DNA from: a virus
Reading direction: 5' to 3' (one strand)
UHGV virus genome: UHGV-1430452
Length of the DNA stretch: 64,000 nt
This document shows positions 4,656 to 40,890 of this stretch, in pieces (position 1 is the stretch's first letter; every line of letters starts with the position of its first letter). The notes beneath the pieces are model-generated. The model was not told the origin of the DNA and did no database searches. It saw nothing but the letters and a program-made list of their open reading frames with translations. The translations under genes were made by a program, and so were the position numbers.

Positions 4656-4946
4656 CTATCGTAAAGATTTTGGGACAAGGCTTTTGATAATCTTTTTCTG
4701 ATGCTCGTCCAGATCGTGATATAGAGTGAAACCCGTTGCCCCATTATACTCATCGCCAAACTGTTTGTAGTACATAGATTGTTTCCATAACTCCGGATAC
4801 TCTTTTTTGTACTTTGCGAGTTCTTTTGCTTTCTTGTCATACTGTTTATCCGAAATTATATTATTATCTAACTCGTAATAAATATATGAATGAAGTATGA
4901 TATATCTTTGCAAGTAATCTATGTATTCGAGGGTTGTTAGTTCCAT
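4656..4946 (-). CDS. hypothetical protein
   Basis: 96-aa ORF overlapping the 3' end of the replication gene by a few nt. Confidence 0.4.
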   Translation of the reverse strand: MELTTLEYIDYLQRYIILHSYIYYELDNNIISDKQYDKKAKELAKYKKEYPELWKQSMYYKQFGDEYNGATGFTLYHDLDEHQKKIIKSLVPKSLR

Positions 4947-25657: not shown

Positions 25658-25715
25658 ATGGTGGCTTTGCTGCCTGTAAGACCTGCACTAAAATGGTGTA
25701 GGTAACTTTTTCCCC

Positions 25716-25770
25716 GACATATATATCATGGTTGTGTTTCTTTTATATCGCCACCATGATATATATCACA
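25716..25770. repeat. Perfect 14-bp inverted repeat (ATATATATCATGGT) with 20-bp spacer downstream of the recombinase gene
   Basis: Arms at 25719..25732 and 25753..25766; candidate attP core or operator. Confidence 0.5.
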
Positions 25771-25813
25771 GGGAAACTATTCTAAACGTTGATATATCAA
25801 GGAGGAGATATAC

Positions 25814-26065
25814 ATGAGAATAGTATGGAAAGACAGTGCGCCTAAAACAAAACCTTGGTTGACGTTCAAATATAGAGAACATATCGTTAGCCAATATGGA
25901 GATGGATGGATTACCGATATACCTGGTGATAACAATATCTATTTTCCGAGAGAGTGTGCTTATAATGCAATCGATAAGTCTCTAGGTGGAAAGACACGAA
26001 AAGCTAATCCTCAAAGACATAAATTAGGAATAAAAGTTATTGGTAGAAAGGACGATGTATCATGA
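25814..26065 (+). CDS. Small hypothetical protein, tandem paralog A (MRIVWKDS...)
   Basis: 83 aa; RBS GGAGGAG; paralog of the next gene. Confidence 0.5.
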   Translation: MRIVWKDSAPKTKPWLTFKYREHIVSQYGDGWITDIPGDNNIYFPRECAYNAIDKSLGGKTRKANPQRHKLGIKVIGRKDDVS

Positions 26066-26313
26066 GAATCGTATGGAAAGATAGTCATAAGCCAAAAGAA
26101 TATGAACCTATGAAATATCGAAATATTTACATCTTCGGTACTCCTGAAGGATGGGAAGTAAATATAAAAGGAGATAATAATCTATACAAGACTCATTACT
26201 GTGCTATGAATGCGATTGATGATTACTTTGGAGATTTTGGAGAACGTGGTACAGAAAAACGTAAACGATATGGAATACAAATAATAGGTAAGAAAAATGA
26301 TGAGACTGCATGA
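26062..26313 (+). CDS. Small hypothetical protein, tandem paralog B (MRIVWKDS...)
   Basis: 83 aa; start overlaps stop of paralog A (ATGA); shared MRIVWKDS, GDNN.Y, NAID, G.RG.. K+.+ GI..IG+K.D. Confidence 0.5.
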   Translation: MRIVWKDSHKPKEYEPMKYRNIYIFGTPEGWEVNIKGDNNLYKTHYCAMNAIDDYFGDFGERGTEKRKRYGIQIIGKKNDETA

Positions 26314-26361: not shown

Positions 26362-26913
26362 TTAGACATTTCTATTTTCGTATGACGTAAATTTTACATT
26401 TGTGTACTCGTTAACCAAAAAGCTACATGCTTCATTAACTGTTTTAACGACGGATTCCCCTTCTATATAACTCTGATAATTCCTTCTTTGATTTTCAAAT
26501 TTAAGATCAGGTTCAACCATGGTATCTACACTTAACCATATTAGTTCCGTAGTATAGTCTTCGGTAAAATATCCTTTTATAAAAACCTCTTTCTTTCCAA
26601 CCGTTCCGATTAGTTTTATAAACGACATATCATGCTTCGTCAGATTAAACGCATATCTTATTCCTTTTACATATTGCCCGCCAAGTTTCCTCGACTTAAT
26701 TGTTTCATAGTAATTATCTTTATTGTTGTTCTTTTTATGCCACTCATCCGATATACAAATCCACATTAAAAGTTCGCTTAAAGTTGCAACCATGGATATG
26801 CTATTTTGTTTGTCGCTTGTGCTTAAATATTCATGAAATCTTTTATGAGATTCTCTTAATCCATGGTTTATATACATTAGCCTAAATTCTTCGACACTAT
26901 TCATTATCTGCAT
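26362..26913 (-). CDS. hypothetical protein (moron/accessory candidate)
   Basis: 183 aa; very AT-rich; convergent with the paralog pair; between the lysis and integration modules. Confidence 0.45.
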   Translation of the reverse strand: MQIMNSVEEFRLMYINHGLRESHKRFHEYLSTSDKQNSISMVATLSELLMWICISDEWHKKNNNKDNYYETIKSRKLGGQYVKGIRYAFNLTKHDMSFIKLIGTVGKKEVFIKGYFTEDYTTELIWLSVDTMVEPDLKFENQRRNYQSYIEGESVVKTVNEACSFLVNEYTNVKFTSYENRNV

Positions 26914-27009: not shown

Positions 27010-27318
27010 TTACATCTTGTGTGAAATCTCCTCGCAATGCTTTTCCAATGATTTGATTCGTTCTTCGTGACCCTGATTTTGAATTTTCAGCTCGTCTATT
27101 TCAGATCCATGATTCGTAACCCGAGTCTTCAAGTTATTAATCATCTCGGTCAAGAAGTTTATAGTCGCGTTGAGTTTGATTATGTTTTCGTTTAGCTTTT
27201 CGATAGGCTCATTTTTAGAATGTTCTTCCTGAGTAATATCCTTCCTCAGTTTCATATAGAAAGCGAACACTGAGCCTATGACTGTTAAGACAATGATTAT
27301 AACTTGATTCTCTGCCAT
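27010..27318 (-). CDS. Membrane-anchored coiled-coil protein (lysis-associated?)
   Basis: 102 aa; N-terminal helix IIIVLTVIGSVFAFY then coiled-coil; immediately after the holin. Confidence 0.45.
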   Translation of the reverse strand: MAENQVIIIVLTVIGSVFAFYMKLRKDITQEEHSKNEPIEKLNENIIKLNATINFLTEMINNLKTRVTNHGSEIDELKIQNQGHEERIKSLEKHCEEISHKM

Positions 27319-27320
27319 AG

Positions 27321-27614
27321 TTATTTTTCCTTCGCTGTATTATTATCGTCTTTCTTACCTTCTACAAATCTACTAAATCCCTGATGTAGACCTGTAGATG
27401 CCAGACCCATAACTGCACCATATACGATGGAATCGACAGAGATGCCGCTTACTGCCGTATTCAATGCTGCGCCGACAACAGCCAGGATGACTGGAATATC
27501 GTCGTTAGGGATACGTTTTAAAAAAGTCGCATGTTTGATGATATATCCAACCACCAGACAAGCGACCATTACTACAAGTACGAAATGTTCAGTTAAAATT
27601 TTTGCGAAATCCAT
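27321..27614 (-). CDS. Putative holin
   Basis: 97 aa; two hydrophobic helices and a charged C-terminus (KKDDNNTAKEK). Confidence 0.55.
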   Translation of the reverse strand: MDFAKILTEHFVLVVMVACLVVGYIIKHATFLKRIPNDDIPVILAVVGAALNTAVSGISVDSIVYGAVMGLASTGLHQGFSRFVEGKKDDNNTAKEK

Positions 27615-27638: not shown

Positions 27639-28274
27639 CTAATTAACTTTTTCCCATCCAGCAGGATATGCCTCAGGGGAGTACACGTTGTTATCGATAA
27701 GTGAAACGTACTTCTCGTTATTGAATGTTATCTTATCTCCCTTTTTATATGCCGTCTCAGCGTTGATCGGCTGTTTAAATTCTGGATACTCAACGTTAGG
27801 ATCTGAGATTTCAACATACAAGGACGGAGAAACATCCGGCTTCCATTCTTCAGTAGATGTGAACGGATCTGACGCGACAACCTTATAGAATTTATCCTGA
27901 TAGATAAAGCGATCTCCTTTGCTATATGTAACTCCCACAACATATTCCGGATACATATATCTCATAATATAAGCATCTTTGTCAGAAGCTTGTTTAAGTG
28001 TAAGATCGAACTGCAACTCTTCAAGTTTCTTAGTTCCTTCTTCGATAGCTGCTTCTTTTTCTTTTTCTTTCAGGATATTATTGTAATGCTCTTCGTCATA
28101 AACTAGATGGTATTTCTTATCCTCTTCGTTAAGTTTCAAAGCATAACAATGTAATTTGGAAAGATCCACAACAGTATCATCGAGAATCGCACAAATATAA
28201 TTATTGCGTAATTGACGAAGAGAAATGTTAGTTATCTCTCCATTGACGTTTTCCGCTTCAACATAAACATTCAT
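27639..28274 (-). CDS. hypothetical protein (tail/lysis region)
   Basis: 211 aa. Confidence 0.45.
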   Translation of the reverse strand: MNVYVEAENVNGEITNISLRQLRNNYICAILDDTVVDLSKLHCYALKLNEEDKKYHLVYDEEHYNNILKEKEKEAAIEEGTKKLEELQFDLTLKQASDKDAYIMRYMYPEYVVGVTYSKGDRFIYQDKFYKVVASDPFTSTEEWKPDVSPSLYVEISDPNVEYPEFKQPINAETAYKKGDKITFNNEKYVSLIDNNVYSPEAYPAGWEKVN

Positions 28275-28290
28275 TGCTCATCACCTCCCC

Positions 28291-28626
28291 TTAAACATCA
28301 ACAGCCCCCGTATAGGAAGGCTGAGTTTTTAACCAATCGTATGCATTTTGAATTAGATCGCCTATAAGTAGTTTCTGAGCCTCATCCCATTCAATGCTAA
28401 GATAATCCATGTTGGTGTATGGAAAAGATGGCTCTCCTATGATTCTACCAGCCATATAATCCTTATCGTATTGACGACCTTCTTTATCAATGTACGATTC
28501 TACAATAATAGTAGCTCGCTGATTAATTTCTACGTTAATGGCGGCAATATGATGATAGCTTACTACTACACCATTAGCGGTTTTAATGTTTACTTCTATA
28601 GCCAAAATATCACTCCTAAACTCCAA
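28291..28626 (-). CDS. Small protein, paralog of 31069..31350; possible fibre assembly or accessory protein
   Basis: 111 aa; shared SYID and C-terminal LKT.P...GA.D with 31069..31350; each sits just after a fibre gene. Confidence 0.45.
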   Translation of the reverse strand: MEFRSDILAIEVNIKTANGVVVSYHHIAAINVEINQRATIIVESYIDKEGRQYDKDYMAGRIIGEPSFPYTNMDYLSIEWDEAQKLLIGDLIQNAYDWLKTQPSYTGAVDV

Positions 28627-31048
28627 TTACTTGTCTAAGAACAAACCTGTTATTGGTATAAGCAACTCCATTGTTTCCCTGTCCGGTATAGTTATTTTCA
28701 ACCCCACCGGTGAGTTTGCCATCAGATATGTTCAATACTTTAACACTCGCATATCCGCAAACTTCAGACATAAGCGTGAAACACCACGGTTTTCCTGAGT
28801 ATGTAGAAACAGCGCTTTTAGGCACGAAGAAGCTATGTAATCTTGTATTAGTAGCAGACCCATTATAATAGTCAGAGAATATCAATACGATTCCATGAGG
28901 TTGATTTGATACAGGGCTACTAAAAGTTATGGTATGAGTATTACTCGGCCATAAACTTCCGGTCCATAGTGTATTATTTGTAAACCTTTCGGTAACTGAA
29001 CCTCTTACAAAGCCATTATCAGCAGTAAACGTCATAGCAGTTCTGATACTGTGAGGGGAATATGAATCTGTTGGGGTCATGAGAAAATAATTTTCGCTAC
29101 TCCCATCAACTTTTCTAGCAAACATTTTTACTGTAGGACTGACTCCTCCTCTATCCCCTTTAACGCTAACATAAGAAGCCACACCATCGTGTGACTCAAA
29201 ATTTGCTAACATATCAGCAATATCTGCTCTTAATACCACGCGATACTCTCCATCATAGCGGCTAGTGTAAATTGTTTCAGTAGTTGAGGCAGCATTAGCT
29301 TCGTATGTAATGATTGGATCATCATCATCTTCGAAATAAACGAGAACATCGTCTGTAAATGCTTCATCGTTTTCGATGACTAAAGTACCTTTTACAGTAG
29401 ATATCTTACCTCTACCGTTATTCATGGATATTACTGTATTATCTGAATTTTTCCCGAGATCTATTAACGATTCACCAAAAGTAGCCAACTCAGTAATTCC
29501 GTTTCTCATTTCGATGTCTGTACTACTAATAAGAATATTTCTGCCAAGAGTTGATGTTCTCTTATCAGCAACCATAAGTCCATTAGCATCGAAACCGAGG
29601 AAGTTTGTAGCGGTTTTAGCAGCTTCTACAGCCTGACCATAAGGATCAATCCAGCTACTCCATGTTGAAGTTGAAGTTCCAACACGCCAATATTCTTTTC
29701 CAGTACCTTCGACTTTGGCTGTCTGTCTCGGATATCCTCCGCTAGTATCTTTGTACGGCATATCAGTTCGTAAATGACAGTAAGTCCCTACTCCAGACAA
29801 TCCTATAGTAGAACAATACTTGAATTCGGCAACTGATGTACTAGGATAATTATTTATGTAATATAGCGGCGGGTAATTCGAATTTTTGGTATCTTTTACG
29901 TCAAGTCCGTCGCCTTTTGGTCCTTGTGGTCCAGTAGGTCCTTGTGGTCCTGTTGCGCCTGTACTACCAGTTTCTCCTCGTGGTCCAGTAGGTCCTTGTG
30001 GTCCAGTGGCTCCTGTGGCTCCGGTGTTACCAGTAATACATACACCATTAGATGATGGAGTATATGATGTAGTGTTGTCTGTGTACGTTACCAGTGTTCT
30101 TCTCCAAATATACTTTCCATCAGCCCACGTAGGTTGACTCGTACTCCATGATCCACCTGTTAATGTTGTCGGGGAATTGGATGAATAGAACTGTTCTTGT
30201 GTACTTTTTATGGTAGAACCCAGTGTTACGCTCAATCCATTAGCAGTCTGTTCTAGAGTAGAGACCTCGCCTTCCAAATCTGTTACTTTCGAACTTAAAC
30301 CACTGGCAGTCTGTTCTACCGTACTAACCCTGTTTCCAAGAGAAGTAGTTTCCTGTACATTTGCTTCTATTCTGTCAGCATTTTGATCGATACTGGATTT
30401 AGCGTTTGTTAGATCTGTAGTGAGCTTCGATACATCCGAAGTTAAGCCATCAGCAGTCTGTTCAAGCGTGCTTGTCCTGACACCTAATTCATTTGTGGCG
30501 TTCACATTTGCTGTAATACGTTCTCTTTCTATGTTCAGATCAGCTTCGTACTCCGTTCTGAGGTCATTCACGGCTTCCCATGAACTATCACAAACTGGGC
30601 TTGTGTATGCATTTGACGTTGGGTTCTTATACGTAATGAGATATCTCGTCCATAAATACATACCAGTAGACCAGGTAGGCATGGAAGTTACCCATGACCC
30701 GCCTGTCTGTGTTGTTTTGGAAGTGCTTAAATAATATTGCTGAGTGATGCTATCAATGCCAGTACCAGTAGGACCCTGAGATCCTGTTGCCCCGTCGGTT
30801 CCATTCTTAGGTATGTAAGATACTGAATATGTTGTAGATGTATCACCCTCTGTATATGTAATGACGGTTCTGCTCCACAAATACTGTCCAGGTGATACAG
30901 AGGGGATTGTCGTACTCCATGTACCGTTTGGAGGATTTGTGCCTGACGTACCAGCCTGATAAGTTATGACTGTGGATGTAATTCCCTTGCCGTCTATTCC
31001 GTCTATAATGTCCGAGATAGTAACCTCGGCTTTAGCTATCACAGCCAA
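28616..31048 (-). CDS. Tail fibre protein with collagen-like G-x-y repeats and repeated coiled-coil segments
   Basis: 810 aa; GATGATGPQGPTGPRGETGSTGATGPQGPTGPQGPKGDG; repeated LEQTA.GL.S.V..L motifs. Confidence 0.7.
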   Translation of the reverse strand: MAVIAKAEVTISDIIDGIDGKGITSTVITYQAGTSGTNPPNGTWSTTIPSVSPGQYLWSRTVITYTEGDTSTTYSVSYIPKNGTDGATGSQGPTGTGIDSITQQYYLSTSKTTQTGGSWVTSMPTWSTGMYLWTRYLITYKNPTSNAYTSPVCDSSWEAVNDLRTEYEADLNIERERITANVNATNELGVRTSTLEQTADGLTSDVSKLTTDLTNAKSSIDQNADRIEANVQETTSLGNRVSTVEQTASGLSSKVTDLEGEVSTLEQTANGLSVTLGSTIKSTQEQFYSSNSPTTLTGGSWSTSQPTWADGKYIWRRTLVTYTDNTTSYTPSSNGVCITGNTGATGATGPQGPTGPRGETGSTGATGPQGPTGPQGPKGDGLDVKDTKNSNYPPLYYINNYPSTSVAEFKYCSTIGLSGVGTYCHLRTDMPYKDTSGGYPRQTAKVEGTGKEYWRVGTSTSTWSSWIDPYGQAVEAAKTATNFLGFDANGLMVADKRTSTLGRNILISSTDIEMRNGITELATFGESLIDLGKNSDNTVISMNNGRGKISTVKGTLVIENDEAFTDDVLVYFEDDDDPIITYEANAASTTETIYTSRYDGEYRVVLRADIADMLANFESHDGVASYVSVKGDRGGVSPTVKMFARKVDGSSENYFLMTPTDSYSPHSIRTAMTFTADNGFVRGSVTERFTNNTLWTGSLWPSNTHTITFSSPVSNQPHGIVLIFSDYYNGSATNTRLHSFFVPKSAVSTYSGKPWCFTLMSEVCGYASVKVLNISDGKLTGGVENNYTGQGNNGVAYTNNRFVLRQVIGV

Positions 31049-31068
31049 ATAACATCACTGTCCTTTCT

Positions 31069-31350
31069 CTAAATATCTGTAGCTCCCTCGAATTCAGGAA
31101 GTGTTTTAAGATACTCATATGCAAGTTCAATTGTCATATTAGGACTATAATCTGTCTCATAAGTCTTGCTCTTTTTATAAGCAACAGAATCGAATGTGTC
31201 TTTTTCGTCATTCCTTGCATGTTCATCAATGTATGAGAGAACCGCTATGGAATTCTGCCGATTGATTGTCGACTGAATAAATAAGATTCTATGATAGTTT
31301 GTAGTAACGCCGTCCAGTTGTTTAATAGCTTTACATAATGCCATAATCAT
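31069..31350 (-). CDS. Small protein, paralog of 28291..28626
   Basis: 93 aa. Confidence 0.45.
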   Translation of the reverse strand: MIMALCKAIKQLDGVTTNYHRILFIQSTINRQNSIAVLSYIDEHARNDEKDTFDSVAYKKSKTYETDYSPNMTIELAYEYLKTLPEFEGATDI

Positions 31351-31358
31351 CAGTCTCC

Positions 31359-33143
31359 TTAACTAAAAGTAATCTTTCCGTCCCAATATATACCAATAGC
31401 ATCATTGTTTGTTACATTTGTTGTGTTAGTAAAAACTACTTTAATATAAACACCAACTCCATATGTAGCGTACGTATCATATGAATCGGGTTTCACATAA
31501 ACAGAAGCAGCCGATCCGTGTGTATACTTAGTGTTCTGCCTTAATACAAAACCGTCCAAACTGGTAGCCGTTGCAGTTGGTGATCCTATTATTGGTTTTG
31601 ACATAGGAACCCAGAATGAAATATCTCTGCCGGAATTAGTCACATAACCAGCAGTTCGTAATGTTATCGAAATGGTATCTCCACGCGAATAATATGGTTT
31701 GTATGTACCTGGACTAGCCAAGTCACTAATACCAAATGTTATGTTATGACCATAAATATTCGTGTTGCCCGTTCTAGCATCCCAGTTTCCATACCCGACA
31801 ATAGTATTACCATATTGGTTCTGAGCCTGGAATGCTTCGTGATAAGTCCCATCGGTAGCATTTTTAGCTATAATGGAATTCGGAGAATCCAGAACCACAT
31901 CTTGCCTAAAATAAGCTTTATAATTAACATCAAAAGCGTCATTTAACTCAGCTGGTTTACCAATTGATACACCTTTTCCTCCAGCTTTAAAGTCGATAGG
32001 AAATCTAGCACCACCAAGAGTTTTCTTAACCGATGTAGTACCATTCTTACTATCAGTTACTTTAATTGTGAATTCATAAGATTTATCAACGTTTAACGCA
32101 TTATCTCCTACTACTACAGAAGCGCTTCCACTATTACCAGATGCAGAGATGGTTTTCGTGTTGGTCAACCATGACACAGTTACTGATGTTACCGGGTTTG
32201 ATCCGGTTAACTGACTACAAGACCAATTAAATGTAATCTTACAATAAGTTCCGGTTTCCTGTGTCGTACCGCTTGAATTACAACGAGTAACTTTCACGCT
32301 TGATATAGTTGGAGGCTTATACGCAAGTTCCCATACAGCGTAAAGAGTAATAGCAGCATTTGAAGTATAGTTAGCTCCTGCCGCATAAGCTACAGCACCT
32401 GTCGCAGACTTAGCCCAACCTTTAAAGTTATAGTTCGTCCTGGTAGGTTTAGTAGTTGATAATTTAAGAGTTACACCGTACGTTTTCGTTTGCTGTGCAG
32501 GTGCTCCACTTCCTCCGTTAGCATTATAAGTAACTTTGTAAGTGATAGCCTGCCATACCGCATAAAGAGTAACACTCGCATTTGCTGTATAACTTGCCCC
32601 AGCAGCATAAGCCACACCCCCAGTAGAAGATGTGGCCCAACCTTTAAATGTATATCCTGTTCTCGTAGGTTTTGTAGACGATAATGTAATGTTTGTTCCA
32701 TGCCATTTTGTCTGTTGAGATGGAGCACCTGAACCTCCGTTTGCGTTATAACTAATCTTATAGGAAGTTTTAGCCGCAACCGAGATCGATCCACTGGCAG
32801 TCTTAGTTCCAGCGTAGGTTCCGCTCCATGTGAAATTCATTTCAAAGGAGAACCACAAAGCGATAGATCTTGCTGATGTTCCCTTTGTAATAGTTACGGT
32901 TCCACTTGTAATTGTCTGAGAACTTTTACCACCTATGGAGAATGTTCCAGATTTAACAACTTTACCATCTATTTTGACACTGTAATTTTTCGCAACGCTA
33001 GAGTTAACAGTATATCCATGAGTTACCCATTTGAGTGTCCAAGAAAGTGTGGCAGTGGTTGCAGTACTACTTGACTGAGTTACTACAAGTTGAACCTGCG
33101 GACAGGATGAACTACCAAATTGTGCCGTTGTTAAAGTTGCCAT
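31359..33143 (-). CDS. Tail protein with two Listeria-Bacteroides-type (Flg_new-like) repeats; probable receptor-binding protein
   Basis: 594 aa; duplicated YNANGGSGAP.QQTK...TKPTRTGY.FKGWA...AYAAGA.YT.NA..TLYAVW. Confidence 0.65.
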   Translation of the reverse strand: MATLTTAQFGSSSCPQVQLVVTQSSSTATTATLSWTLKWVTHGYTVNSSVAKNYSVKIDGKVVKSGTFSIGGKSSQTITSGTVTITKGTSARSIALWFSFEMNFTWSGTYAGTKTASGSISVAAKTSYKISYNANGGSGAPSQQTKWHGTNITLSSTKPTRTGYTFKGWATSSTGGVAYAAGASYTANASVTLYAVWQAITYKVTYNANGGSGAPAQQTKTYGVTLKLSTTKPTRTNYNFKGWAKSATGAVAYAAGANYTSNAAITLYAVWELAYKPPTISSVKVTRCNSSGTTQETGTYCKITFNWSCSQLTGSNPVTSVTVSWLTNTKTISASGNSGSASVVVGDNALNVDKSYEFTIKVTDSKNGTTSVKKTLGGARFPIDFKAGGKGVSIGKPAELNDAFDVNYKAYFRQDVVLDSPNSIIAKNATDGTYHEAFQAQNQYGNTIVGYGNWDARTGNTNIYGHNITFGISDLASPGTYKPYYSRGDTISITLRTAGYVTNSGRDISFWVPMSKPIIGSPTATATSLDGFVLRQNTKYTHGSAASVYVKPDSYDTYATYGVGVYIKVVFTNTTNVTNNDAIGIYWDGKITFS

Positions 33144-34516
33144 TATGAATCACTTCCTTTCCAAATGAGACCCATGTTACCGTTACTGCGCTCTGCAAAT
33201 GCAAATCCGCCAAATGCTAATTCATCCTCAACTTCTGCTTTTCCGATTTTTAACGATTGGTTAGTTACATATGCCGGGACGGTTGTACCATCCATGAATT
33301 TTATAGCTGTATTGGTGATTAGAACTTTAAACGAACTCTCATTTCCAAGCTCAATGCACGGTTCGTCTCCATCAGTTGTGATTCGAATATAATTCGTTAA
33401 CTCTTCCAAACCTGTCACAGCATTTTCCAATGCAGTGATATCTCCACCTTGAGCGTCAATATCATTCTCCAAAGACTTTATTCCATCAATAGCATTCTGT
33501 AATTGAGTTAAAGTCTCACCCATAGAAAATATCCATCCACTTGATGTTTGCTCCATTAACGAAGCTCCGCTACCGTCAACAACCATGGTAGATATTGAAT
33601 CAGCTATCTGTGAAATCCTAGATTCTGCTTGTTCGATACGTTCAGTCAATCTATCGGCTGCATCTTGAGCAGCATTTTCCGCTGCTTCTAAGCCATTAGA
33701 TGACGCTAAATCTTCCGGAGCCGGTGTCCAGTCGGTTGCTTTGTTTCCGAGTTCGAATTTAACATTTCGAATTTTGCAACCTACCTGTGTTGGACAATAT
33801 ATCTCTATTTTGTTACTACTAATCAAGTCAGTTCCTTCTTCTCCTTTATCAGCAACGGTAATGTCCAATTCTTGATGTACCCAAGTAGTTCCAACAGCCT
33901 GGATTGAATTGTTTATAGTCATTACATATCTGGGTGTTCCGTTCGTATTATATACATTGCAAGTTGTACTTCCGTTTGGACTAACGATATCAAAACTCAT
34001 TTTGACTTTTTCCCCAACGAAGTTACTCATAGGAACTGTCAGATTATAAAATTGTGAAAAAGAACCTGTATCTTGATATGTTGCTAAGACATATTCATTA
34101 TTTTCATCAAATGGTAAACCACTACGACCATCACCATCATAATCAACGTCTCTTGTTCCGAAATAGTTTCTTCCTCCTATTTCAAGTCCGTCAATCTTAT
34201 TATTAGTGCTATTCGCAGTGTTCTGTGCATTAACCGCTTTGTTGTATGCCTGCTTCGCCGCTTCATACGAGCTCGATTTCGAAACTGACGAATATCTAAA
34301 ATTCCCATTTGTAAATACAGTACAATCCACGAAATATAAAGTATTAGTAGATCCAGCACTGTATGAAGGTTCCGTCAATGACCAATTACCGCCTGGCGGA
34401 TTACTTGTGGGTTTGGCCGGGATGTTGGTAGTAGACGATTGTAACAGATAATATCGAGTTACAGATTCTATATCAACGATATGGGATATTGTTATCTCGG
34501 CCTTCCCCCTAATCAT
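33143..34516 (-). CDS. Tail fibre-like protein with coiled-coil
   Basis: 457 aa; position in fibre cluster. Confidence 0.55.
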   Translation of the reverse strand: MIRGKAEITISHIVDIESVTRYYLLQSSTTNIPAKPTSNPPGGNWSLTEPSYSAGSTNTLYFVDCTVFTNGNFRYSSVSKSSSYEAAKQAYNKAVNAQNTANSTNNKIDGLEIGGRNYFGTRDVDYDGDGRSGLPFDENNEYVLATYQDTGSFSQFYNLTVPMSNFVGEKVKMSFDIVSPNGSTTCNVYNTNGTPRYVMTINNSIQAVGTTWVHQELDITVADKGEEGTDLISSNKIEIYCPTQVGCKIRNVKFELGNKATDWTPAPEDLASSNGLEAAENAAQDAADRLTERIEQAESRISQIADSISTMVVDGSGASLMEQTSSGWIFSMGETLTQLQNAIDGIKSLENDIDAQGGDITALENAVTGLEELTNYIRITTDGDEPCIELGNESSFKVLITNTAIKFMDGTTVPAYVTNQSLKIGKAEVEDELAFGGFAFAERSNGNMGLIWKGSDS

Positions 34517-34526
34517 ATTAAGCTCC

Positions 34527-35651
34527 TTACTGCTCTAACTGAGCGGTATAAACTACAGAATTAGTAACCTCAGCCGCTGATACGCTCAATGTCTTACTGG
34601 TTTTAATTGCTGTAGTTGATCCCTGTTTATACCATTTAATACTTCCAAGAGATCCGCATACTCCGGCGTCCGTGATTGACTGTTCAATAGCGCCTTTAAA
34701 TACATGAGCTGTTAATACAGTAGAGCCGGAATTGTTCTTAAATATAGTTCCGTTTGAGGAAGTAATGGTAATTGTAATAGCATCAGCTCCAGCATTACCC
34801 TGAGCACCTGTTGCTCCATGAGTTCCGATGATTGCTGGAGTAGAAGAAGCTGTCTGACCATTTGTATATGTAGTCTTCTGATATGACCAAATATATTTGT
34901 TTGTTGTTGTAGTTGCTGTCGGTGTAGTTGACCATCCACTTGTAGATGTAGTCACTCCACTTGATGCGGATGTTGTAAGGTAGAAAGTTTCAACCTTCGA
35001 TATGCCATTACCTGTAGCACCTGTCTGACCTGTAGCTCCTGTTGCCCCATGAGTACCAATAATGACAGGTGTGGTTGTGGTCGGAGAACCTGTAGTATAC
35101 GAAATTTTCTGATAACTCCACAAATATTTGTTAGTTGTTGTAGTGGACTGCATTGATGTTGTCCATCCGGTAGTAGAAGTAGTAACACCAGAAGGAGATG
35201 ATGAAGCCAGGTAGTAGGTTTCAACTCCCGTAATACCTTTTCCCGGAGATCCAGTAGCTCCTGTCTGTCCAGTTGCTCCTGTCTGCCCCTTCATCGCTAC
35301 CGCAAACGAGAACTTCTTATTTACGGTGATTCCATCCACTACTACAGGTATTGTAGCCTCACAAGCTTCTGTAATTGCAGCTGTTGTTGTGAATGTTATT
35401 TTCACGGCTGATGTTCCACTGTTTGCCACAGATGCACTAATTCCTTCTGGACAAGTTATATTAGCTGCTGTAACACTAACCGATGAACACTGATTTGTTC
35501 CGCAGAATGCAACAGCTTCTGTAGTACAAGTCAGACCAGTAGCTGTACCGCTAGTACCTCCAACAAAAGTGTAAGCTTCACTAGTTAACATGACTGAATA
35601 CGCGTCTGTAACGTCTATAATCGTAATCTGATCAGCTGATCTAATTGCCAT
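34527..35651 (-). CDS. Tail fibre-like protein with tandem Thr-rich domain duplication and short G-x-y tracts
   Basis: 374 aa; two repeats of about 75 aa ending in IIGTHGATGA.G..GA. Confidence 0.55.
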   Translation of the reverse strand: MAIRSADQITIIDVTDAYSVMLTSEAYTFVGGTSGTATGLTCTTEAVAFCGTNQCSSVSVTAANITCPEGISASVANSGTSAVKITFTTTAAITEACEATIPVVVDGITVNKKFSFAVAMKGQTGATGQTGATGSPGKGITGVETYYLASSSPSGVTTSTTGWTTSMQSTTTTNKYLWSYQKISYTTGSPTTTTPVIIGTHGATGATGQTGATGNGISKVETFYLTTSASSGVTTSTSGWSTTPTATTTTNKYIWSYQKTTYTNGQTASSTPAIIGTHGATGAQGNAGADAITITITSSNGTIFKNNSGSTVLTAHVFKGAIEQSITDAGVCGSLGSIKWYKQGSTTAIKTSKTLSVSAAEVTNSVVYTAQLEQ

Positions 35652-35669: not shown

Positions 35670-37244
35670 TTAAACAATTAATTGACATAGAAATGTGATT
35701 TTTGTATCGACGTCTTCAGGACTTAGTGTGAAGGTAAAACCATCGTTGCCAAGTCGCTCATCGTCGGCTGATATAACTCCAAATGAATCGTCATTAAGTC
35801 GTTGCCAGCTCCATTCAAGGTATGCACCAGGACCAACTGCCTCTTTAAGGGTTTTCATATCTGTAATTCTTCTGCTTCCACGATAAATAACCGCCGATAA
35901 TACGGTGGCTACTTGATCGTTCTTAAATACAGTTCCTCTCGATGATTCAATCCTCAAAAGAGTTGTTACTTCATCCTCAATCTGGGTCATATGATTTTTG
36001 ATGCTATCAATCTCTTCTTGAAGACTTGGACCGCTGCTACCACCAGCAGACATTGATATGCTGTTTGCTGATATTTCGAGCTTATAAGTACCGTCTTCTG
36101 TTTTATAATATTTCAAGAAATTGCTAGAGTCTCCGAAAGCTATTTGCCCCTCATTATCGAGATAAATACCACGAGTATTGTTATCTACAGTCTCTTTAAC
36201 TCCAGAATATATGGAATTGTTTGTTATATTAAGTCCACCAATAGTTGCGCCAAAAGCAACCAAATCGCTAACTGATATCTTCTCTGCTGTTACTGATTTC
36301 GCTCTAATGACTTGTCCATTAAGGCTGTTATAATCAGTTTGTTCGGCTTCTGTGGTAACTCCATCTGTATTAAGTTTGTAATATAGACCGTCTTCACCTT
36401 TCACCACTAACTTATCAGCAACAATAGTATTGGCTTCAATCATGTCACCACGGATAGTAACACCGACCAACTCTCCTGTGAGCGTTTGATCTCCTACAAC
36501 CAAATCTTTAATAAGACCACTTTCAGTAAATAAGTTTGTAATAGCAGCTTTTCCGATATTGGAAAAATCGATATTGGCATATTTACCGTCAAGGTTGGCA
36601 ATTGTAGCGTTGATGGCAGTTAAATCCTCTGTGGTAAGATTCTTGAAGTTACCAAAGTCAGATTCTAAATTATGAATATTAGCGTCGACAGCTTCCAGAC
36701 TTCCTATTGTCGCGTATTTAATATCAGCTATATCGGCATCGAGTTTCTTAGCGTTTAAGTTTTCTATTTCCGCAGAATTAGCGGTTAGTTTCCCTTCAAT
36801 TGTTGCATCATTGGCTTTTAATGTTTCAATATCGGCTTTGCTAGCAGTCAATGTATCTTTAATAGTCACATTATCACTGACTAAGTCATCGATACGACCC
36901 ATCTGAGCATCGAATTCTTTAGTACTTACTTTGTCAGCAATTACTATTTCGAATTCTGATATTTGATCACCAATTTCCGTAACAACTTTATTACTAGCCG
37001 ACGGGGATGACGTGCTACCAGTGACAGTCGCAGAATGGTCTTTAATTGTCACAATAACTCGGTCACCGTTTTCTACTACTGTAGTAGATTTCATAGGTGT
37101 TAATAGATCAGACCCATCAAGCTTTACAAATTTCTCACCATTGTAATCGACTATTGTTCCAAAAGAGGTGCTTTCGGAAGGTTCCTTTTTGGTATCTTTA
37201 GTCGCTTTTACGAATTGTGATATCAAATCGCTAGAGAGTCCCAT
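35670..37244 (-). CDS. Tail fibre or baseplate protein, coiled-coil rich
   Basis: 524 aa. Confidence 0.55.
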   Translation of the reverse strand: MGLSSDLISQFVKATKDTKKEPSESTSFGTIVDYNGEKFVKLDGSDLLTPMKSTTVVENGDRVIVTIKDHSATVTGSTSSPSASNKVVTEIGDQISEFEIVIADKVSTKEFDAQMGRIDDLVSDNVTIKDTLTASKADIETLKANDATIEGKLTANSAEIENLNAKKLDADIADIKYATIGSLEAVDANIHNLESDFGNFKNLTTEDLTAINATIANLDGKYANIDFSNIGKAAITNLFTESGLIKDLVVGDQTLTGELVGVTIRGDMIEANTIVADKLVVKGEDGLYYKLNTDGVTTEAEQTDYNSLNGQVIRAKSVTAEKISVSDLVAFGATIGGLNITNNSIYSGVKETVDNNTRGIYLDNEGQIAFGDSSNFLKYYKTEDGTYKLEISANSISMSAGGSSGPSLQEEIDSIKNHMTQIEDEVTTLLRIESSRGTVFKNDQVATVLSAVIYRGSRRITDMKTLKEAVGPGAYLEWSWQRLNDDSFGVISADDERLGNDGFTFTLSPEDVDTKITFLCQLIV

Positions 37245-37250
37245 TAAATA

Positions 37251-38327
37251 TCACCCCCATAATTTAGTTGTAAATACAGCTTTCTCTGTAACTGGACATC
37301 CAGGCTCACATTTGATAGATTGACTAACAACTTTGGCTTTTATGTTACTTATTCCAGCTCGTTTATAGTTAAGACGTACACAATCATTTAACCGTACAGG
37401 ACAATACGCGTGAGTATATGTCACCGTATATTCAAGGCAGGACACTTCACGGAGTAATTGCTCTGCATATTTTTGAATCTGTGATTCGGTCGGTATACCT
37501 GACAAGCTAGGATTAGTCACTCGATGTAAAATCTCTCGACCGCGATTGATAGTAGAAGTTGGACTATTTTCGTCGTCATTAACTGCCCTACCGTAATAAA
37601 TATCGTTAGCGTCAGAGTATACTACCTCAACAACATTCGGTATTCCGTACAGATCATGATTTACTGTTATCTCAGGATACAAGATAGAACTATTATTATC
37701 ATCATAGGTATGAACAGGTTGCAAAGAGGCCGTATCCTGATCGGGAGCGAAAAGAATACGACCTAATTCGTCTAAACTAAGTTTATATTTTGCATTTGAT
37801 ATCAAATCCGAAGTAAATGTTATCCAAGTATCATCCGTGTTTGCTACAAAATCGTTATATAATTCAGTCTCATTGTCTGCTTTTATAACTGGTGCTCTTA
37901 CGTTGTCACGACATATCTGATAGGCCATTTTCATGATGTTCTCGCCTTTTAATATGGAATATCCAAGAGGTGGTGGATTCTCCTTTAACTCAATCAGTGG
38001 TGTGTAAGCGTCAAGAGTGTTGTCTTGTTTCTTACCGTCGAATGATGAGGATGGGGTTTGAACTAAGTAAGTGCCTAGAGGATGTTTCTCAGTTAATCCA
38101 TTTTGAATCGTAATGAGATAAACCCTCACATAGCACTCACCGATAGTTTCCGTAATATCTAATGTAGCTGATCCAAGTGTTTCAGCCCCTGAGTCTCTGG
38201 AAATAGAACACGATTTCACGGTATCTATTCGTTTCATATCTTTCCATGTGCCTGGATCGACTATATAGTATTCAAATGTCTGTTCCATCGACTTAGTCCA
38301 ATCTGGCATATCAGATACCTCCTTCAA
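37251..38327 (-). CDS. Tail/baseplate structural protein
   Basis: 358 aa; second gene after the tape measure. Confidence 0.5.
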   Translation of the reverse strand: MKEVSDMPDWTKSMEQTFEYYIVDPGTWKDMKRIDTVKSCSISRDSGAETLGSATLDITETIGECYVRVYLITIQNGLTEKHPLGTYLVQTPSSSFDGKKQDNTLDAYTPLIELKENPPPLGYSILKGENIMKMAYQICRDNVRAPVIKADNETELYNDFVANTDDTWITFTSDLISNAKYKLSLDELGRILFAPDQDTASLQPVHTYDDNNSSILYPEITVNHDLYGIPNVVEVVYSDANDIYYGRAVNDDENSPTSTINRGREILHRVTNPSLSGIPTESQIQKYAEQLLREVSCLEYTVTYTHAYCPVRLNDCVRLNYKRAGISNIKAKVVSQSIKCEPGCPVTEKAVFTTKLWG

Positions 38328-40890
38328 CTCTTGTTATGTCTAGAGTAACCGGAATAGTGACATCGGAATGTTTCTGATTAAAAGATACAGTGATGTTTGC
38401 CCAATAGCCGCTTCCGGACGGTTCCCTAACATACACATCACCCATCCATACGGATAAACGCCGTAATGCATAAAGAGTCTCTTTGTCTTCCTTAGGAATA
38501 ACCATATTCCAAGTTGCAGAAGCGCCAACATGAGTGCCATAATAACTAACCGGATACTTTCTTCCGATATAATTTACGAGTGTACTATCCGGTTTGTTAT
38601 TGTCTGATACATCAATGTTGTAAGGGATTTTCAGCATCGAACCTACCCATGGAGGAGTTTCGAGTTCTTCGTCTTCAGTTGTGTTAAAATTGGTCCATTC
38701 ATCGTCCCACTGAATTATTACGGAATTGCCTCCTACTGGATACCCAGGTGGATCATAGTAACTAACAGAACCTGTACTTTTCGATGTGGCGACAATTCTA
38801 TATCGCGCGTAATCTAAAGCTGGGTGTGGATCAGTTACGTATGATTCATCTAAAGGAGATAGACCGGTAGCTAGCTCGGTAAATGTTCCATCAAACTCTT
38901 TCCTATAAACCGATAGCTCAACATCGGCCACAGCTTCCGACATTTCGTTCAAACAATATGGACTTATGTATGCTGTGTATGTTTCTTCGTCAATTCCTAT
39001 TTCTGCATCCGGTTCATATGTGAATTCAGTCCATGATACATCGAATTCTAATTCCGCTTCTGACGTAAGACCGGAATCCATAGAAGCAGTGCATTTAACT
39101 GTATAGCTGATGGCATTTTCGAGATCTATACTATGTGCAGAGATCTCCAATAACAACTGCTCTTTAGTGTCAAAGTACTGAGAATATAATGCTTCTCCTG
39201 CGTTTATTATTTTCTCATTGCCTATTTCATCAACTGTTGTGTAAACTTCATTCGATGTTATTTCAACATGATATCCAATTGGCATCTGAGTGTTAGGACC
39301 AGTTTCACACTTAAGATAAATAGGAAACGAATTTACTGTAGTGATAATATTATTTTGATTATCAGTCAAATTCATGGACAATGTGGCCGGAGCATAAACG
39401 TTAACTGTTCTCTGTATCGACCAATCGCCATACTGTTTAGTTACACCAGCAGTTCTAACTCGCCACTTTATAACAGTGCCTTCTTTGTATTGGGTAGTAT
39501 CCACAGAATAGAAACTGGTTCTATCTTTATCTTCTTCGACATTGGTATTTTCTATAGTGTGGGTTATTTTTTCTTCATCATAATATATCTCTAATTCAGC
39601 AAACGTCTGACTAGAGCCGTCTTCCGCATTATGAACCCAATATAGAAGTAACTCTTCCCCAGTAATCGCGGTAGTTGTTGAAGACCATGTTGTAGGAGCT
39701 GATGGACTTTTACCAATAACTATGGATTTAATCGATGTCCATGACGATTCTCCATTATCGTTTACAGCTCGTACTCTAAAGAAATATTCCTGTCCTGATT
39801 CCATCCCGGTTATCTGAGCATATTGGTAAGCAGTAGATGTCACGCTTTTAACCTCTCCAGGATTTTGATCGAAATACGATTGTTTTGTTGTATATTCGAT
39901 AGTAAAGCTTGTAGCATTCTCTACTTTTTCCCATTTAAGCTGCACAGACGTGTCCGACGTAGCCTTGATGAAAATTATTTCTTTAGGAGCTGCTGGTACT
40001 GTTCCTGCTGAATTCGAGTAATCAGACCATTCGCCATAGATTTTATCGCTTCCGTATAGGTTCACTGCTCTACAACGAACTCTGTAGTCTGAACCTGGAT
40101 TAATAGTAAAAGACGCCACAGCTCTACAGGTCTGAACCTTTACTGTCGACGTCTTAAACCGAGTTGCCCCACTATAAACTTCAAAAGCGATCTGGTCAGT
40201 TCTAGGATCATCAATGTTATCGATAGTTGCTGTTAATGTGTACTTATCGATTTTTACACTTGGTGCATTAGGCTTAGCAGGAGGATTACCTGCAAAATTC
40301 AAGTATGCACTAGCTTTAGTGGCAGTCCAATAAGCAACGTCTTTACCATTCACCTTATGCTTTTTAGCGACAGGTTTAACATATACCATGACACTTATCG
40401 CATTTGACGGGACGGTGTATGTAGATTGGTGTACTTTTTCTTGTGAATTACTTCCTACAAAAAATATTCCATCACCAGTGCTATAACGCCATTCAACTTG
40501 ATAATAATCTACATAAGAGGTAGCTCTTGGTGCTGCGAAAAAAGATACTGACCTGGTTCCATCACCGAAGTCAGTACCACTTCCATCTTTTATCAGATAT
40601 CCGACATTTATAGCGGACTGAATATTATGAGTACCACTTTTATTCCTGCCTAGAACAGCTCTTGCTCCTTTAATCTGAGTAATTTTCCATGTCTCATTAA
40701 AAACCCAGGAGGAAATGCTAACACCGTTATACCATGTAGCACCACTTTGAATTGTTACCCATTCGCCTACTCGATAGTTTCCAATTTGTTCTGCATATAT
40801 TTTTGCCGGTTCTTTAAAGTCCCATGTAGCGTAATATGTACTATCTGTACCAGACTGAAGCGCTAATTTAAGATTGGTAACTGACGCCAT
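38311..40890 (-). CDS. Distal tail (Dit-like) protein with fibronectin type III-like repeats
   Basis: 859 aa; immediately downstream of the tape measure; FN3-like segments (PSAP..W, EYTTKQ...RVRAVN). Confidence 0.6.
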   Translation of the reverse strand: MASVTNLKLALQSGTDSTYYATWDFKEPAKIYAEQIGNYRVGEWVTIQSGATWYNGVSISSWVFNETWKITQIKGARAVLGRNKSGTHNIQSAINVGYLIKDGSGTDFGDGTRSVSFFAAPRATSYVDYYQVEWRYSTGDGIFFVGSNSQEKVHQSTYTVPSNAISVMVYVKPVAKKHKVNGKDVAYWTATKASAYLNFAGNPPAKPNAPSVKIDKYTLTATIDNIDDPRTDQIAFEVYSGATRFKTSTVKVQTCRAVASFTINPGSDYRVRCRAVNLYGSDKIYGEWSDYSNSAGTVPAAPKEIIFIKATSDTSVQLKWEKVENATSFTIEYTTKQSYFDQNPGEVKSVTSTAYQYAQITGMESGQEYFFRVRAVNDNGESSWTSIKSIVIGKSPSAPTTWSSTTTAITGEELLLYWVHNAEDGSSQTFAELEIYYDEEKITHTIENTNVEEDKDRTSFYSVDTTQYKEGTVIKWRVRTAGVTKQYGDWSIQRTVNVYAPATLSMNLTDNQNNIITTVNSFPIYLKCETGPNTQMPIGYHVEITSNEVYTTVDEIGNEKIINAGEALYSQYFDTKEQLLLEISAHSIDLENAISYTVKCTASMDSGLTSEAELEFDVSWTEFTYEPDAEIGIDEETYTAYISPYCLNEMSEAVADVELSVYRKEFDGTFTELATGLSPLDESYVTDPHPALDYARYRIVATSKSTGSVSYYDPPGYPVGGNSVIIQWDDEWTNFNTTEDEELETPPWVGSMLKIPYNIDVSDNNKPDSTLVNYIGRKYPVSYYGTHVGASATWNMVIPKEDKETLYALRRLSVWMGDVYVREPSGSGYWANITVSFNQKHSDVTIPVTLDITRVEGGI

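What the first reader, a model, noticed from the sequence alone, without database searches (positions are those of the whole stretch)
28291..35651. Expanded tail fibre cluster with collagen-like, Flg_new-repeat and Thr-rich repeat proteins plus paired small accessory paralogs
Several large fibre-like genes follow the Dit-like gene, several with internal tandem duplications (Flg_new-like repeats in 31359..33143, Thr-rich 75-aa repeats in 34527..35651, collagen repeats in 28616..31048). Two paralogous small proteins (28291..28626, 31069..31350) each sit just after a fibre gene, consistent with fibre-specific chaperones. This suggests a complex, modular host-recognition apparatus.
Basis: partly seen in the sequence, partly recalled or inferred. 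Interest (0 to 1): 0.45.

Follow-up and report, generated by a model that had tools for sequence, protein, structure and literature searches.

The report
Phage tail-fibre cluster with tip accessory proteins
This is the host-attachment gene block of a temperate gut-Clostridia phage: it is ordinary in kind, but its two small paralogous genes belong to a large uncharacterised protein family that travels with the tips of tail fibres, and whether they act as chaperones or as structural parts is still open.

Summary
On the minus strand, after the tape measure and a Dit-position gene, lie five fibre-like genes (524, 374, 457, 594, 810 aa), two small paralogs and a CBM_5_12 protein, then the holin. 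The collagen, Flg_new and ~77-aa repeats are real. The small paralogs are 33% identical; their true lengths are 91 and 104 aa.

- **Family:** the small proteins belong to a family of at least 1,451 clusters (50% identity). It has no Pfam match, no name and no solved-structure relative, despite a confident model (pLDDT 95).
- **Position:** in 108 of 110 instances across 108 related loci (window included) the gene starts 3–20 nt after, or slightly overlapping, a large fibre gene.
- **Co-inheritance:** it is inherited with the last ~120 codons of that fibre, not with the rest.
- **Modularity:** shafts, tips and whole fibres are swapped between relatives, so the "modular host-recognition" reading is well supported.

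The "chaperone" label is not shown. One relative replaces tip plus small gene with a Peptidase_S74 intramolecular chaperone, which favours it. Against an obligatory chaperone, the 810-aa fibre's tip type lacks the small gene in 71 of 80 loci. Several family members are fused to CBM_5_12 modules homologous to the window's next gene, which suggests a retained tip adaptor.

This is a new variant of a known kind, of moderate interest.

The parts
38311..40890 (-). 859-aa protein in the Dit position, directly after the tape measure gene (40895-48442). It carries an fn3 domain. This is context for the cluster.
   Evidence: Pfam fn3 E=3.4e-11 and no Dit/Sipho_tail match. PDB sequence hits are FN3 domains only. 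Orthologs of 65% identity in L004/L005 occupy the same position.
37251..38327 (-). Conserved 352-aa baseplate or Tal-position protein. The listed ORF is 358 aa, and relatives start 6 codons later.
   Evidence: 63-68% identical 352-aa orthologs occur in every related phage examined. phrog_1887 'tail protein' E=3.6e-16. A weak Phage-tail_3 hit is recorded for the L004 ortholog. No PDB sequence match.
35670..37244 (-). 524-aa fibre-like protein, the first of the variable series, with a coiled-coil-like middle.
   Evidence: PHROG tail hits. Orthologs are 52-70% identical. In L006 and L129 this protein is fused in one ORF with the C-terminal part of the 457-aa protein.
34527..35651 (-). 374-aa fibre protein with two ~77-80-aa Thr-rich repeats (34797-35279), each preceded by a short G-X-Y run.
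   Evidence: Self-alignment z=20. phrog_2189 and phrog_6468 tail/host-specificity hits. Shares repeat modules with the 810-aa protein, 36% over 143 aa. This gene is optional in relatives: present in L005, absent in L004.
33143..34516 (-). 457-aa fibre protein with one copy of the same repeat module at its N-terminus.
   Evidence: PHROG 'tail' and 'host range and adsorption' hits. Similar to the N-terminal part of the 810-aa protein, E=1e-8. The ortholog in L212 is 82% identical.
31359..33143 (-). 594-aa fibre. From N to C: N-terminal domain, 2 x Flg_new (32331-32768), an FN3-like domain, then the 'type A' ~115-aa beta-sandwich tip (31362-31706) ending ...ITFS.
31069..31344 (-). 91-aa small accessory protein, the partner of the type A tip. 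The true start is ATG at 31344.
   Evidence: RBS AAGGAG overlaps the stop codon of the 594-aa gene. Family profile hit E=1.9e-45. Orthologs of 71-82% identity follow g594 orthologs in L006, L210 and L212.
28616..31048 (-). 810-aa fibre. From N to C: conserved N-terminal anchor with repeat modules (about residues 1-165), coiled coil (160-295), 14 G-X-Y collagen triplets (29906-30037), a globular C-terminal region, then the 'type B' ~117-aa tip (28619-28969) ending ...FVLRQVIGV.
   Evidence: Pfam Collagen. P22 gp26-needle-like coiled coil E=7e-7. N-terminus is 65-77% identical to L004, L005 and L212 fibres that have other C-termini. Type B tip alignment.
28291..28605 (-). 104-aa small accessory protein, a paralog of the 91-aa one with a ~13-aa insertion. 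The true start is TTG at 28605.
   Evidence: 33% identity to the 91-aa paralog, E=1e-13. The start is supported by 104-aa homologs and a GGAG RBS. AF2 pLDDT 95.2.
27639..28274 (-). 211-aa protein with an N-terminal domain of unknown kind plus 2 x CBM_5_12. It is linked to the small-protein family by natural fusions.
   Evidence: Pfam CBM_5_12 37.1 bits against a 26.2 cut-off. P0251 combines the small domain (38% identity to the 104-aa protein) with CBM repeats 52% identical to residues 114-210 of this protein. L212 has a 245-aa homolog with a different N-terminal domain in the same slot.

Best explanation
**What the region is.** It is the distal-tail, host-adhesion operon of a temperate siphovirus-type phage of gut Clostridia. 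Several trimeric fibre proteins are built from interchangeable modules: N-terminal anchors, ~70-80-aa repeat modules, coiled coil, collagen, Flg_new and FN3. Two of them end in different tip domains.

**What the small proteins are.** Each of those two fibre genes is followed, within a coupled translation unit, by a small acidic protein (91 and 104 aa) of one large uncharacterised family. My best reading is that this family is a fibre-tip partner. Each small protein binds the C-terminal end of its own fibre. It may help that end to assemble, and most likely it stays on the fibre as a cap or adaptor.

**The CBM link.** In some phages the same domain is the N-terminal anchor of a CBM_5_12 carbohydrate-binding protein. 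In this phage that function is provided by the separate 211-aa gene that follows the 104-aa gene. The phage would therefore display two different distal fibres plus accessory sugar-binding modules.

**Shown:** gene order, paralogy, family size, tight coupling, co-inheritance with the fibre end, the fusions and the module swapping.

**Inferred:** physical binding, retention in the virion and any chaperone activity.
For: - **Structural context:** TerL, portal, capsid, TAC, TMP, holin, serine integrase and HTH repressor are all present.
- **Position:** the small gene starts 3-20 nt after, or slightly overlapping, the end of a large fibre-like ORF (most 397-1632 aa, a few cut by a contig end) in 108 of 110 instances. 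Its downstream neighbours are heterogeneous.
- **Overall correlation:** similarity of small proteins against similarity of the fibre C-terminus gives Mantel r=0.90, with 0 of 2000 permutations reaching it.
- **Partitioned correlation:** of 1,209 pairs with similar small proteins, 100% share the last 120 aa of the fibre. Only 26-28% share the preceding 180 aa or the first 200 aa.
- **Reciprocal test:** 15 of 17 loci found through the type A tip carry the small gene right after it.
- **Subtype pairing independent of shaft:** L129 has a Flg_new shaft with a g810-type end, followed by an insertion-type small domain.
- **Fusions:** the small domain is N-terminal to 3-4 CBM_5_12 repeats in P0251, P0257, P0306 and L016. 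The P0251 CBM part is 52% identical to the window's 211-aa protein.
- **Alternative anchors:** L212 has a CBM protein with another N-terminal domain directly after its fibre. This fits variable N-terminal domains acting as fibre-specific anchors.
- **Model and conservation:** confident compact alpha/beta model (pLDDT 95). Twelve residues are invariant among 50 members that are mostly 30-40% identical to the 104-aa protein.
Against: - No direct evidence of binding or of presence in virions. No cultured phage carries a detectable homolog, so no virion proteomics can be consulted.
- The g810-type tip occurs without the small gene in 71 of 80 loci and in L110. For that tip the partner is dispensable, or else it pairs with something further upstream.
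- Co-inheritance of the small gene with the nearest 120 codons could partly reflect plain physical linkage.
- CBM fusions are a minority of the family.
- The Peptidase_S74 replacement fits a transient chaperone at least as well as it fits a retained cap.
Confidence: 0.45

Rival explanations
1. This is the first reader's reading: a transient, fibre-specific assembly chaperone. The small protein helps the C-terminal domain of its cognate fibre to trimerise and fold, and is then released. It is absent from the virion.
For: - It is positioned immediately 3' of the fibre gene with coupled translation.
- Its subtype tracks the tip type.
- A relative keeps 73% identity over residues 1-413 of the 594-aa fibre, but ends in a Peptidase_S74 intramolecular chaperone domain and has no small gene. 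This suggests functional replacement.
- The type A tip is almost always accompanied by the small gene, in 15 of 17 loci.
Against: - No sequence or fold similarity to Tfa, gp38, gp57A, XkdW or SPP1 gp23.1-type proteins.
- The type B tip mostly exists without it, in 71 of 80 loci.
- Recurrent fusion to CBM_5_12 modules makes little sense for a protein that never leaves the cytoplasm.
- Strongly conserved polar residues (Y, H, N, S, Y, R, K) across partners with unrelated tips are unusual for a client-specific chaperone.
Confidence: 0.3
2. The small proteins have nothing to do with the fibres. On this reading they are morons, lysis-timing factors or immunity factors that happen to sit at the boundary between the tail and lysis modules.
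For: - They lie at the tail/lysis junction, where accessory genes accumulate. In most relatives the next gene is a holin or a membrane protein.
- All sources name them 'hypothetical protein'.
Against: - The upstream neighbour is conserved (a fibre in 108 of 110 instances) while the downstream neighbour is not.
- In the window and in L210/L212 the 91-aa gene lies between two fibre genes, far from the holin.
- There is tight co-variation with the fibre end.
- They have no signal peptide or transmembrane segment and are acidic soluble proteins.
Confidence: 0.07
3. The small protein is itself the terminal adhesin, a small lectin-like receptor-binding subunit. The fibre tip would only present it, in the way gp38 of T2-type phages sits at the tip of the long tail fibre.
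For: - A set of polar and aromatic residues is invariant across the family.
- Fusion to further carbohydrate-binding modules would add avidity.
- The middle segment is variable, with insertions between subtypes.
Against: - The small protein is more conserved than is usual for a receptor-binding surface under host-range selection.
- The large C-terminal regions of the fibres themselves look like receptor-binding heads.
Confidence: 0.15

Closest known systems
Tail fibre assembly proteins and tip adhesins of Gram-negative phages: lambda/Mu/P2 Tfa (Pfam Caudo_TAP) and T-even gp38 (from my own knowledge of these systems)
   Same: A small gene lies immediately downstream of the fibre gene. Its subtype is matched to the fibre's C-terminal domain and the pair is exchanged as a cassette. 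In Mu Tfa and T2 gp38 the protein can remain on the tip.
   Different: - No sequence match to Caudo_TAP or any Pfam family.
- The fold has no solved relative.
- The hosts are Gram-positive Clostridia.
- The conserved parts are the N- and C-terminal segments, with a variable middle.
- The partner is dispensable for one tip type.
XkdW (Pfam PF09636, PDB 2HG7) of the Bacillus subtilis PBSX tail-fibre/lysis junction (from my own knowledge)
   Same: It is a protein of about 100 aa encoded between the last tail fibre gene and the XhlA/holin lysis genes. The window also has an XhlA-like gene and a holin just downstream.
BppA accessory baseplate protein of lactococcal phage Tuc2009 (PMC4742702), and the CBM-decorated 'evolved' Dit/Tal proteins of Streptococcus thermophilus phages (PMC7533335)
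   Same: In siphophages of Gram-positive hosts, accessory carbohydrate-binding modules are added to the adhesion device alongside the main receptor-binding protein. The small-domain plus CBM_5_12 fusions and the window's 211-aa CBM protein would play that role.
   Different: No sequence relationship was tested or seen. Here the CBM is carried by a separate small anchor domain encoded after the distal fibre. It is not inserted in Dit or Tal, and it is not bound to BppU.
Peptidase_S74 intramolecular chaperone domains of phage fibres and spikes (PF13884)
   Same: It occupies the same place, at the C-terminal end of a g594-type fibre, in relative L108, where the small gene is absent.
   Different: It is not present in any protein of the window. 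It acts in cis and is cleaved off, whereas the small protein is a separate gene product.

Membership tests
Collagen triple-helix repeat (PF01391) | An uninterrupted run of G-X-Y triplets scoring above the Pfam gathering threshold | tested here: met
   The 810-aa protein scores 28.5 bits against a 27.2 cut-off at residues 340-379, with 14 consecutive G-X-Y triplets. The 374-aa protein scores only 19.5 bits, below the cut-off, from short runs of 5-6 triplets.
Flg_new / Listeria-Bacteroides repeat (PF09479, TIGR02543) | A repeat of about 65-70 aa matching the profile above its threshold | tested here: met
   The 594-aa protein has two copies, with 113.5 bits against 27 and TIGR02543 at 31.4 against 20.95. 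The two copies align with z=27.7.
CBM_5_12 (PF02839) | Profile match above the gathering threshold | tested here: met
   The 211-aa protein scores 37.1 bits against 26.2, with two stretches.
Tail fibre assembly protein Tfa (Pfam Caudo_TAP) and other named fibre chaperones | Sequence membership in the family | tested here: not met
   No Pfam family for either paralog at E<=0.01. No consistent family for 50 members at E<=1. No NCBIfam hit. The profile against PDB sequences gave 0 hits at E<=10.
Tail fibre assembly protein Tfa (Pfam Caudo_TAP) and other named fibre chaperones | Gene immediately downstream of its cognate fibre gene and exchanged together with the fibre tip | tested here: met
   108 of 110 instances are adjacent to a fibre. 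The gene is co-inherited with the last 120 aa of the fibre in 100% of 1,209 pairs.
Tail fibre assembly protein Tfa (Pfam Caudo_TAP) and other named fibre chaperones | Binds the fibre C-terminal domain and is required for its trimerisation | not testable with these tools
   No multimer prediction is available, and this would need an experiment. There is indirect evidence against a strict requirement for the type B tip: 71 of 80 loci lack the small gene.
XkdW (PF09636; PDB 2HG7) | Sequence or fold similarity to XkdW | tested here: not met
PHROG phrog_5084 (unknown function) | Profile match | tested here: inconclusive
   Weak, partial matches: E=1.8e-5 (residues 8-71) and E=1.8e-4 (residues 2-56). 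The family has no annotated function.
Distal tail protein Dit (Sipho_tail) | Sequence match to Dit; position directly after the tape measure gene | tested here: inconclusive
   The position criterion is met. No Dit or Sipho_tail match: only fn3 was found. The structure was not predicted.
Invertible fibre-switch systems (Mu Gin/G segment type) | Alternative fibre-tip plus accessory cassettes in opposite orientation, flanked by inverted repeats, with an invertase | tested here: not met
   Both cassettes are on the same strand, each behind a complete fibre gene. No long inverted repeats flank them. The recombinase is a 528-aa large serine integrase type.

The most novel reading that the evidence does not exclude
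The 91-aa and 104-aa proteins would define a new, very large protein family: at least 1,451 clusters at 50% identity, with a fold that has no solved relative. On this reading the family is a general plug-in tip adaptor for tail fibres of gut Clostridia phages. It would be a retained cap that recognises the last ~120 residues of a fibre and docks additional carbohydrate-binding modules or acts as an adhesin. That would make it a Gram-positive counterpart of the gp38 and Tfa chaperone-adhesins, and a handle for predicting and engineering host range in uncultured gut phages.
Probability: 0.3. Interest if true: 0.6.

Novelty: new variant of a known kind. Interest (0 to 1): 0.4.

Why it matters
Host range of gut Lachnospiraceae and Clostridia phages is almost unstudied, and nearly all of these phages are uncultured.

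- **Annotation:** a small gene that reliably marks the distal fibre and travels with its tip is a practical marker for finding receptor-binding proteins in metagenomic phages.
- **Engineering:** if the small protein is a retained adaptor that can carry carbohydrate-binding modules, it offers a natural docking point for retargeting fibres.
- **Dual distal fibres:** this phage and its close relatives carry two distal fibres in series. The second slot is hypervariable (810, 694 or 1078 aa). This is a clear example of host-range modules being added rather than replaced.

If the small proteins turn out to be ordinary transient chaperones, the finding is a routine annotation.

Tried and rejected
- **Homology between the two fibre tips.** A first hhalign run gave 97% probability. 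That was an artefact, because six sequences were in both alignments. With disjoint sets the probability is 0.1%, so the two tips are unrelated at sequence level.
- **Cultured-phage homologs of the small proteins.** I searched INPHARED by tblastn with both paralogs and with a family consensus. There were no credible hits. The fibre region also has no near-identical DNA match.
- **Invertible host-range switch.** None: there are no flanking inverted repeats and both cassettes are on the same strand.
- **The 211-aa protein's N-terminus as a diverged small domain.** Not supported (HMM E=0.12).
- **A 20-sequence alignment of the type A tip.** It was too diverse for the locus scan, so I used a 7-sequence subset.
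- **322-aa members in the cluster of a Blautia small protein.** This is a clustering artefact from a glycosyltransferase, not a fusion.
- **Literature.** Searches for Flg_new in phage tails and for fibre chaperones in Lachnospiraceae prophages gave nothing relevant.


Full report
**Context.** The window is a low-GC (about 38%) temperate phage genome with almost all genes on the minus strand.
- The structural module runs in this order: terminase large subunit, portal, protease-capsid fusion, tail assembly chaperone, a 2515-aa tape measure protein.
- The block in question follows, and then a holin and an XhlA-like gene.
- A large serine integrase and an HTH repressor lie on the other strand.
- A near-identical phage occurs on an 81,861-bp metagenome contig (L001); the same fibre and small proteins are on record on contigs of up to about 96 kb.
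- No cultured phage in INPHARED matches the fibre region at DNA level.

| Protein | Feature claimed | Result |
|---|---|---|
| 810 aa | Collagen | 14 uninterrupted G-X-Y triplets; Pfam Collagen 28.5 bits against 27.2 |
| 594 aa | Flg_new | Two repeats; 113.5 bits against 27; copies align with z=27.7 |
| 374 aa | Thr-rich repeat | Two repeats of ~77-80 aa; z=20 |
| 91 and 104 aa | Paralogs | 33% identity, E=1e-13 |

- The true starts of the small genes are 31344 (ATG) and 28605 (TTG), giving 91 and 104 aa. Each has a GGAG site beside the upstream stop codon, so translation is probably coupled to the fibre gene.
- No convincing promoter or terminator interrupts the block.
- The cluster is larger than the stated range. 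It includes a 524-aa fibre-like gene, a conserved 352-aa gene upstream, and a 211-aa CBM_5_12 protein downstream.
- The 374-, 457- and 810-aa proteins share N-terminal and repeat modules. These also hit PHROG 'tail fiber; host specificity' families.

**The small proteins belong to a large unnamed family.**
- A profile of the two paralogs found 517 proteins in the 90%-clustered database, none with a Pfam domain.
- A profile of 50 members found 1,451 clusters at 50% identity (268 at E<=1e-10). The domain is at the N-terminus in all but two of the 150 proteins listed.
- Sources call them 'hypothetical protein'. They occur in prophages of Blautia, Ruminococcus and other Clostridia.
- AlphaFold gives a compact alpha/beta model at pLDDT 95.
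- The profile matched no PDB sequence, and no Pfam or NCBIfam family fits.
- The family is therefore not XkdW, Tfa or any other named fibre chaperone by any test available here.

**Genomic behaviour of the family.** I collected 100 related loci from viral contigs and genomes, plus contexts from metagenomes.
- The small gene starts 3-20 nt after, or slightly overlapping, the end of a large ORF on the same strand in 108 of 110 instances. Most of these ORFs are 397-1632 aa; a few are cut by a contig end. The two instances without one lie too close to a contig end to see the upstream gene.
- The gene after it is variable: holins, membrane proteins, other fibres and unrelated small ORFs.
- Similarity between small proteins predicts similarity between the C-termini of their upstream fibres (Mantel r=0.90, 0 of 2000 permutations).
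- Of 1,209 pairs of loci with similar small proteins, all share the last 120 residues of the fibre. Only 26-28% share the preceding 180 or the first 200 residues.
- The small gene and the fibre tip therefore move as one cassette, grafted onto many different shafts. Physical proximity alone could contribute to this pattern.

**Two tip types in the window.**
- The 594-aa fibre ends in a ~115-aa 'type A' domain (...ITFS). This domain is also found at the end of fibres of 397 to 1632 aa that precede 89-91-aa small proteins.
- The 810-aa fibre ends in a ~117-aa 'type B' domain (...FVLRxVxGV). It is found before 102-104-aa small proteins that carry a ~13-aa insertion.
- The two tips are unrelated in sequence. 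An earlier apparent match was my own artefact.
- L129 confirms that pairing follows the tip and not the shaft. It has a Flg_new shaft like g594 and a g810-type end, followed by an insertion-type small domain.

**Reciprocal tests give different answers for the two tips.**
- Of 17 viral loci found through the type A tip, 15 have the small gene right after it. The two exceptions are followed by a recombinase gene.
- Of 80 loci found through the type B tip, only 9 have the small gene. The other 71 go straight to holins, membrane proteins or further fibres, with no alternative conserved small partner.
- L110 is a relative of the window phage that shows the same thing.
- The type B tip can therefore evidently be made without this protein.

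**Chaperone or structural part?**
- In favour of a chaperone-like role: relative L108 keeps 73% identity to the first 413 residues of the 594-aa fibre. It ends in a Peptidase_S74 intramolecular chaperone domain and has no small gene.
- In favour of a retained, structural role: the small domain forms the N-terminus of proteins with 3-4 CBM_5_12 repeats in at least four lineages (P0251, P0257, P0306, L016).
- P0251 is 38% identical to the window's 104-aa protein over residues 1-98. It is 52% identical to the CBM half of the window's 211-aa protein over residues 107-201. It is thus a natural fusion of two adjacent window genes.
- In close relatives L212 and L213, a 245-aa CBM protein with yet another N-terminal domain directly follows the distal fibre.
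- The simplest reading is that these variable N-terminal domains, the small family among them, are fibre-specific anchors for accessory sugar-binding modules. That requires them to be on the virion.
- The family also keeps twelve invariant, mostly polar or aromatic residues across partners with unrelated tips. That is more typical of a conserved binding function than of a client-specific foldase.
- I therefore favour a tip partner that is retained (confidence 0.45) over a purely transient chaperone (0.30). Neither is demonstrated.

**Expansion and modularity.** Relatives share the Dit-position gene, the 352-aa gene and the 524-aa gene, then differ.

| Locus | Genes after the shared part |
|---|---|
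| L004 | One distal fibre plus a 104-aa gene |
| L005 | As L004, plus a 374-aa gene |
| L006 | The 524- and 457-type proteins fused into one 1347-aa ORF, then a Flg_new fibre plus a 91-aa gene |
| L210, L212 (window clade) | The whole g524-g374-g457-g594-g91 series (g594 orthologs 83-87% identical), then a hypervariable second distal fibre of 1078 or 694 aa |

- In the window that second fibre is 810 aa. The L212 fibre shares 77% identity with it over the first ~165 residues and nothing at the tip.
- Two copies of the small gene were seen only in the window phage and its twin contig L001, among 108 loci scanned in one pass.
- There is no inversion switch.
It adds that this phage lineage gained a second distal fibre rather than exchanging one.

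**Limits.**
- The 'Dit' label rests on position only.
- No multimer prediction or experiment was possible, so binding, retention and chaperone activity are inferences.
- The host of this particular phage is not identified. Clostridia of the gut is inferred from where the family occurs and from base composition.

**Verdict.** The modular host-recognition interpretation is supported. The chaperone assignment is plausible but unproven, and partly contradicted. The block is an ordinary kind of phage locus that contains an uncharacterised, very widespread fibre-tip accessory family: a new variant of a known kind, interest about 0.4.

Noticed in passing
window 48832-50550 (-), with 27010-27614 and 26362-26913: A 572-aa GH25 + CHAP + 4 x CW_7 lysin is encoded between the tail assembly chaperone and the 2515-aa tape measure, which itself carries PG_binding_1. 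No recognisable endolysin sits next to the holin/XhlA-like pair, and the next gene (183 aa) has no Pfam hit. Relative L110 has a conventional holin plus GH25/CW_7 endolysin after its fibres. Either the endolysin is displaced, or this is a tail-associated lysin and the true endolysin is unrecognised.
   Followed up: no
window 25814-26065 and 26062-26313 (+): Two tandem, overlapping paralogous 83-aa genes (both starting MRIVWKDS...) have no Pfam match. They are kept as a pair next to the serine integrase in relatives L001, L110, L210 and L212. They may be recombination directionality or regulatory factors.
   Followed up: no
window 25709-25776: A 24-nt inverted repeat (88% complementary, 20-nt spacer) lies about 50 nt 3' of the serine integrase gene. 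It could be the attP core or a terminator.
   Followed up: no
loci L130-L209 (IMG/VR): The type B fibre end (~117 aa...FVLRxVxGV) is widespread in uncultured phages. In 71 of 80 loci it is followed directly by holin or membrane genes or by further fibres, without any small accessory gene.
   Followed up: yes
L108 6001-8367; L110 6001-7869: There are natural chimeras of the Flg_new fibre. One has a Peptidase_S74 C-terminus. Another carries the type B tip of the 810-aa fibre (47% identity over the last 117 aa). These show recombination at about residue 415-445 of the 594-aa protein.
   Followed up: partly
window 52967-54904 (-): A single 645-aa ORF combines a prohead protease (Peptidase_S78, N-terminal) with a major capsid domain (Phage_capsid, C-terminal).
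   Followed up: no
window 4937-9163 (-): A 1408-aa protein has a DUF5906 domain, in the early/replication region. Relatives carry several DUF6353 genes in the equivalent region.
   Followed up: no
L210 3061-4191; L212 3691-4812 (orthologs of window 34527-35651): Precomputed Pfam lists a faint BppU-like_C hit for orthologs of the 374-aa protein. This hints that the protein could be an upper-baseplate connector rather than a free fibre. It is only a hint.
   Followed up: no
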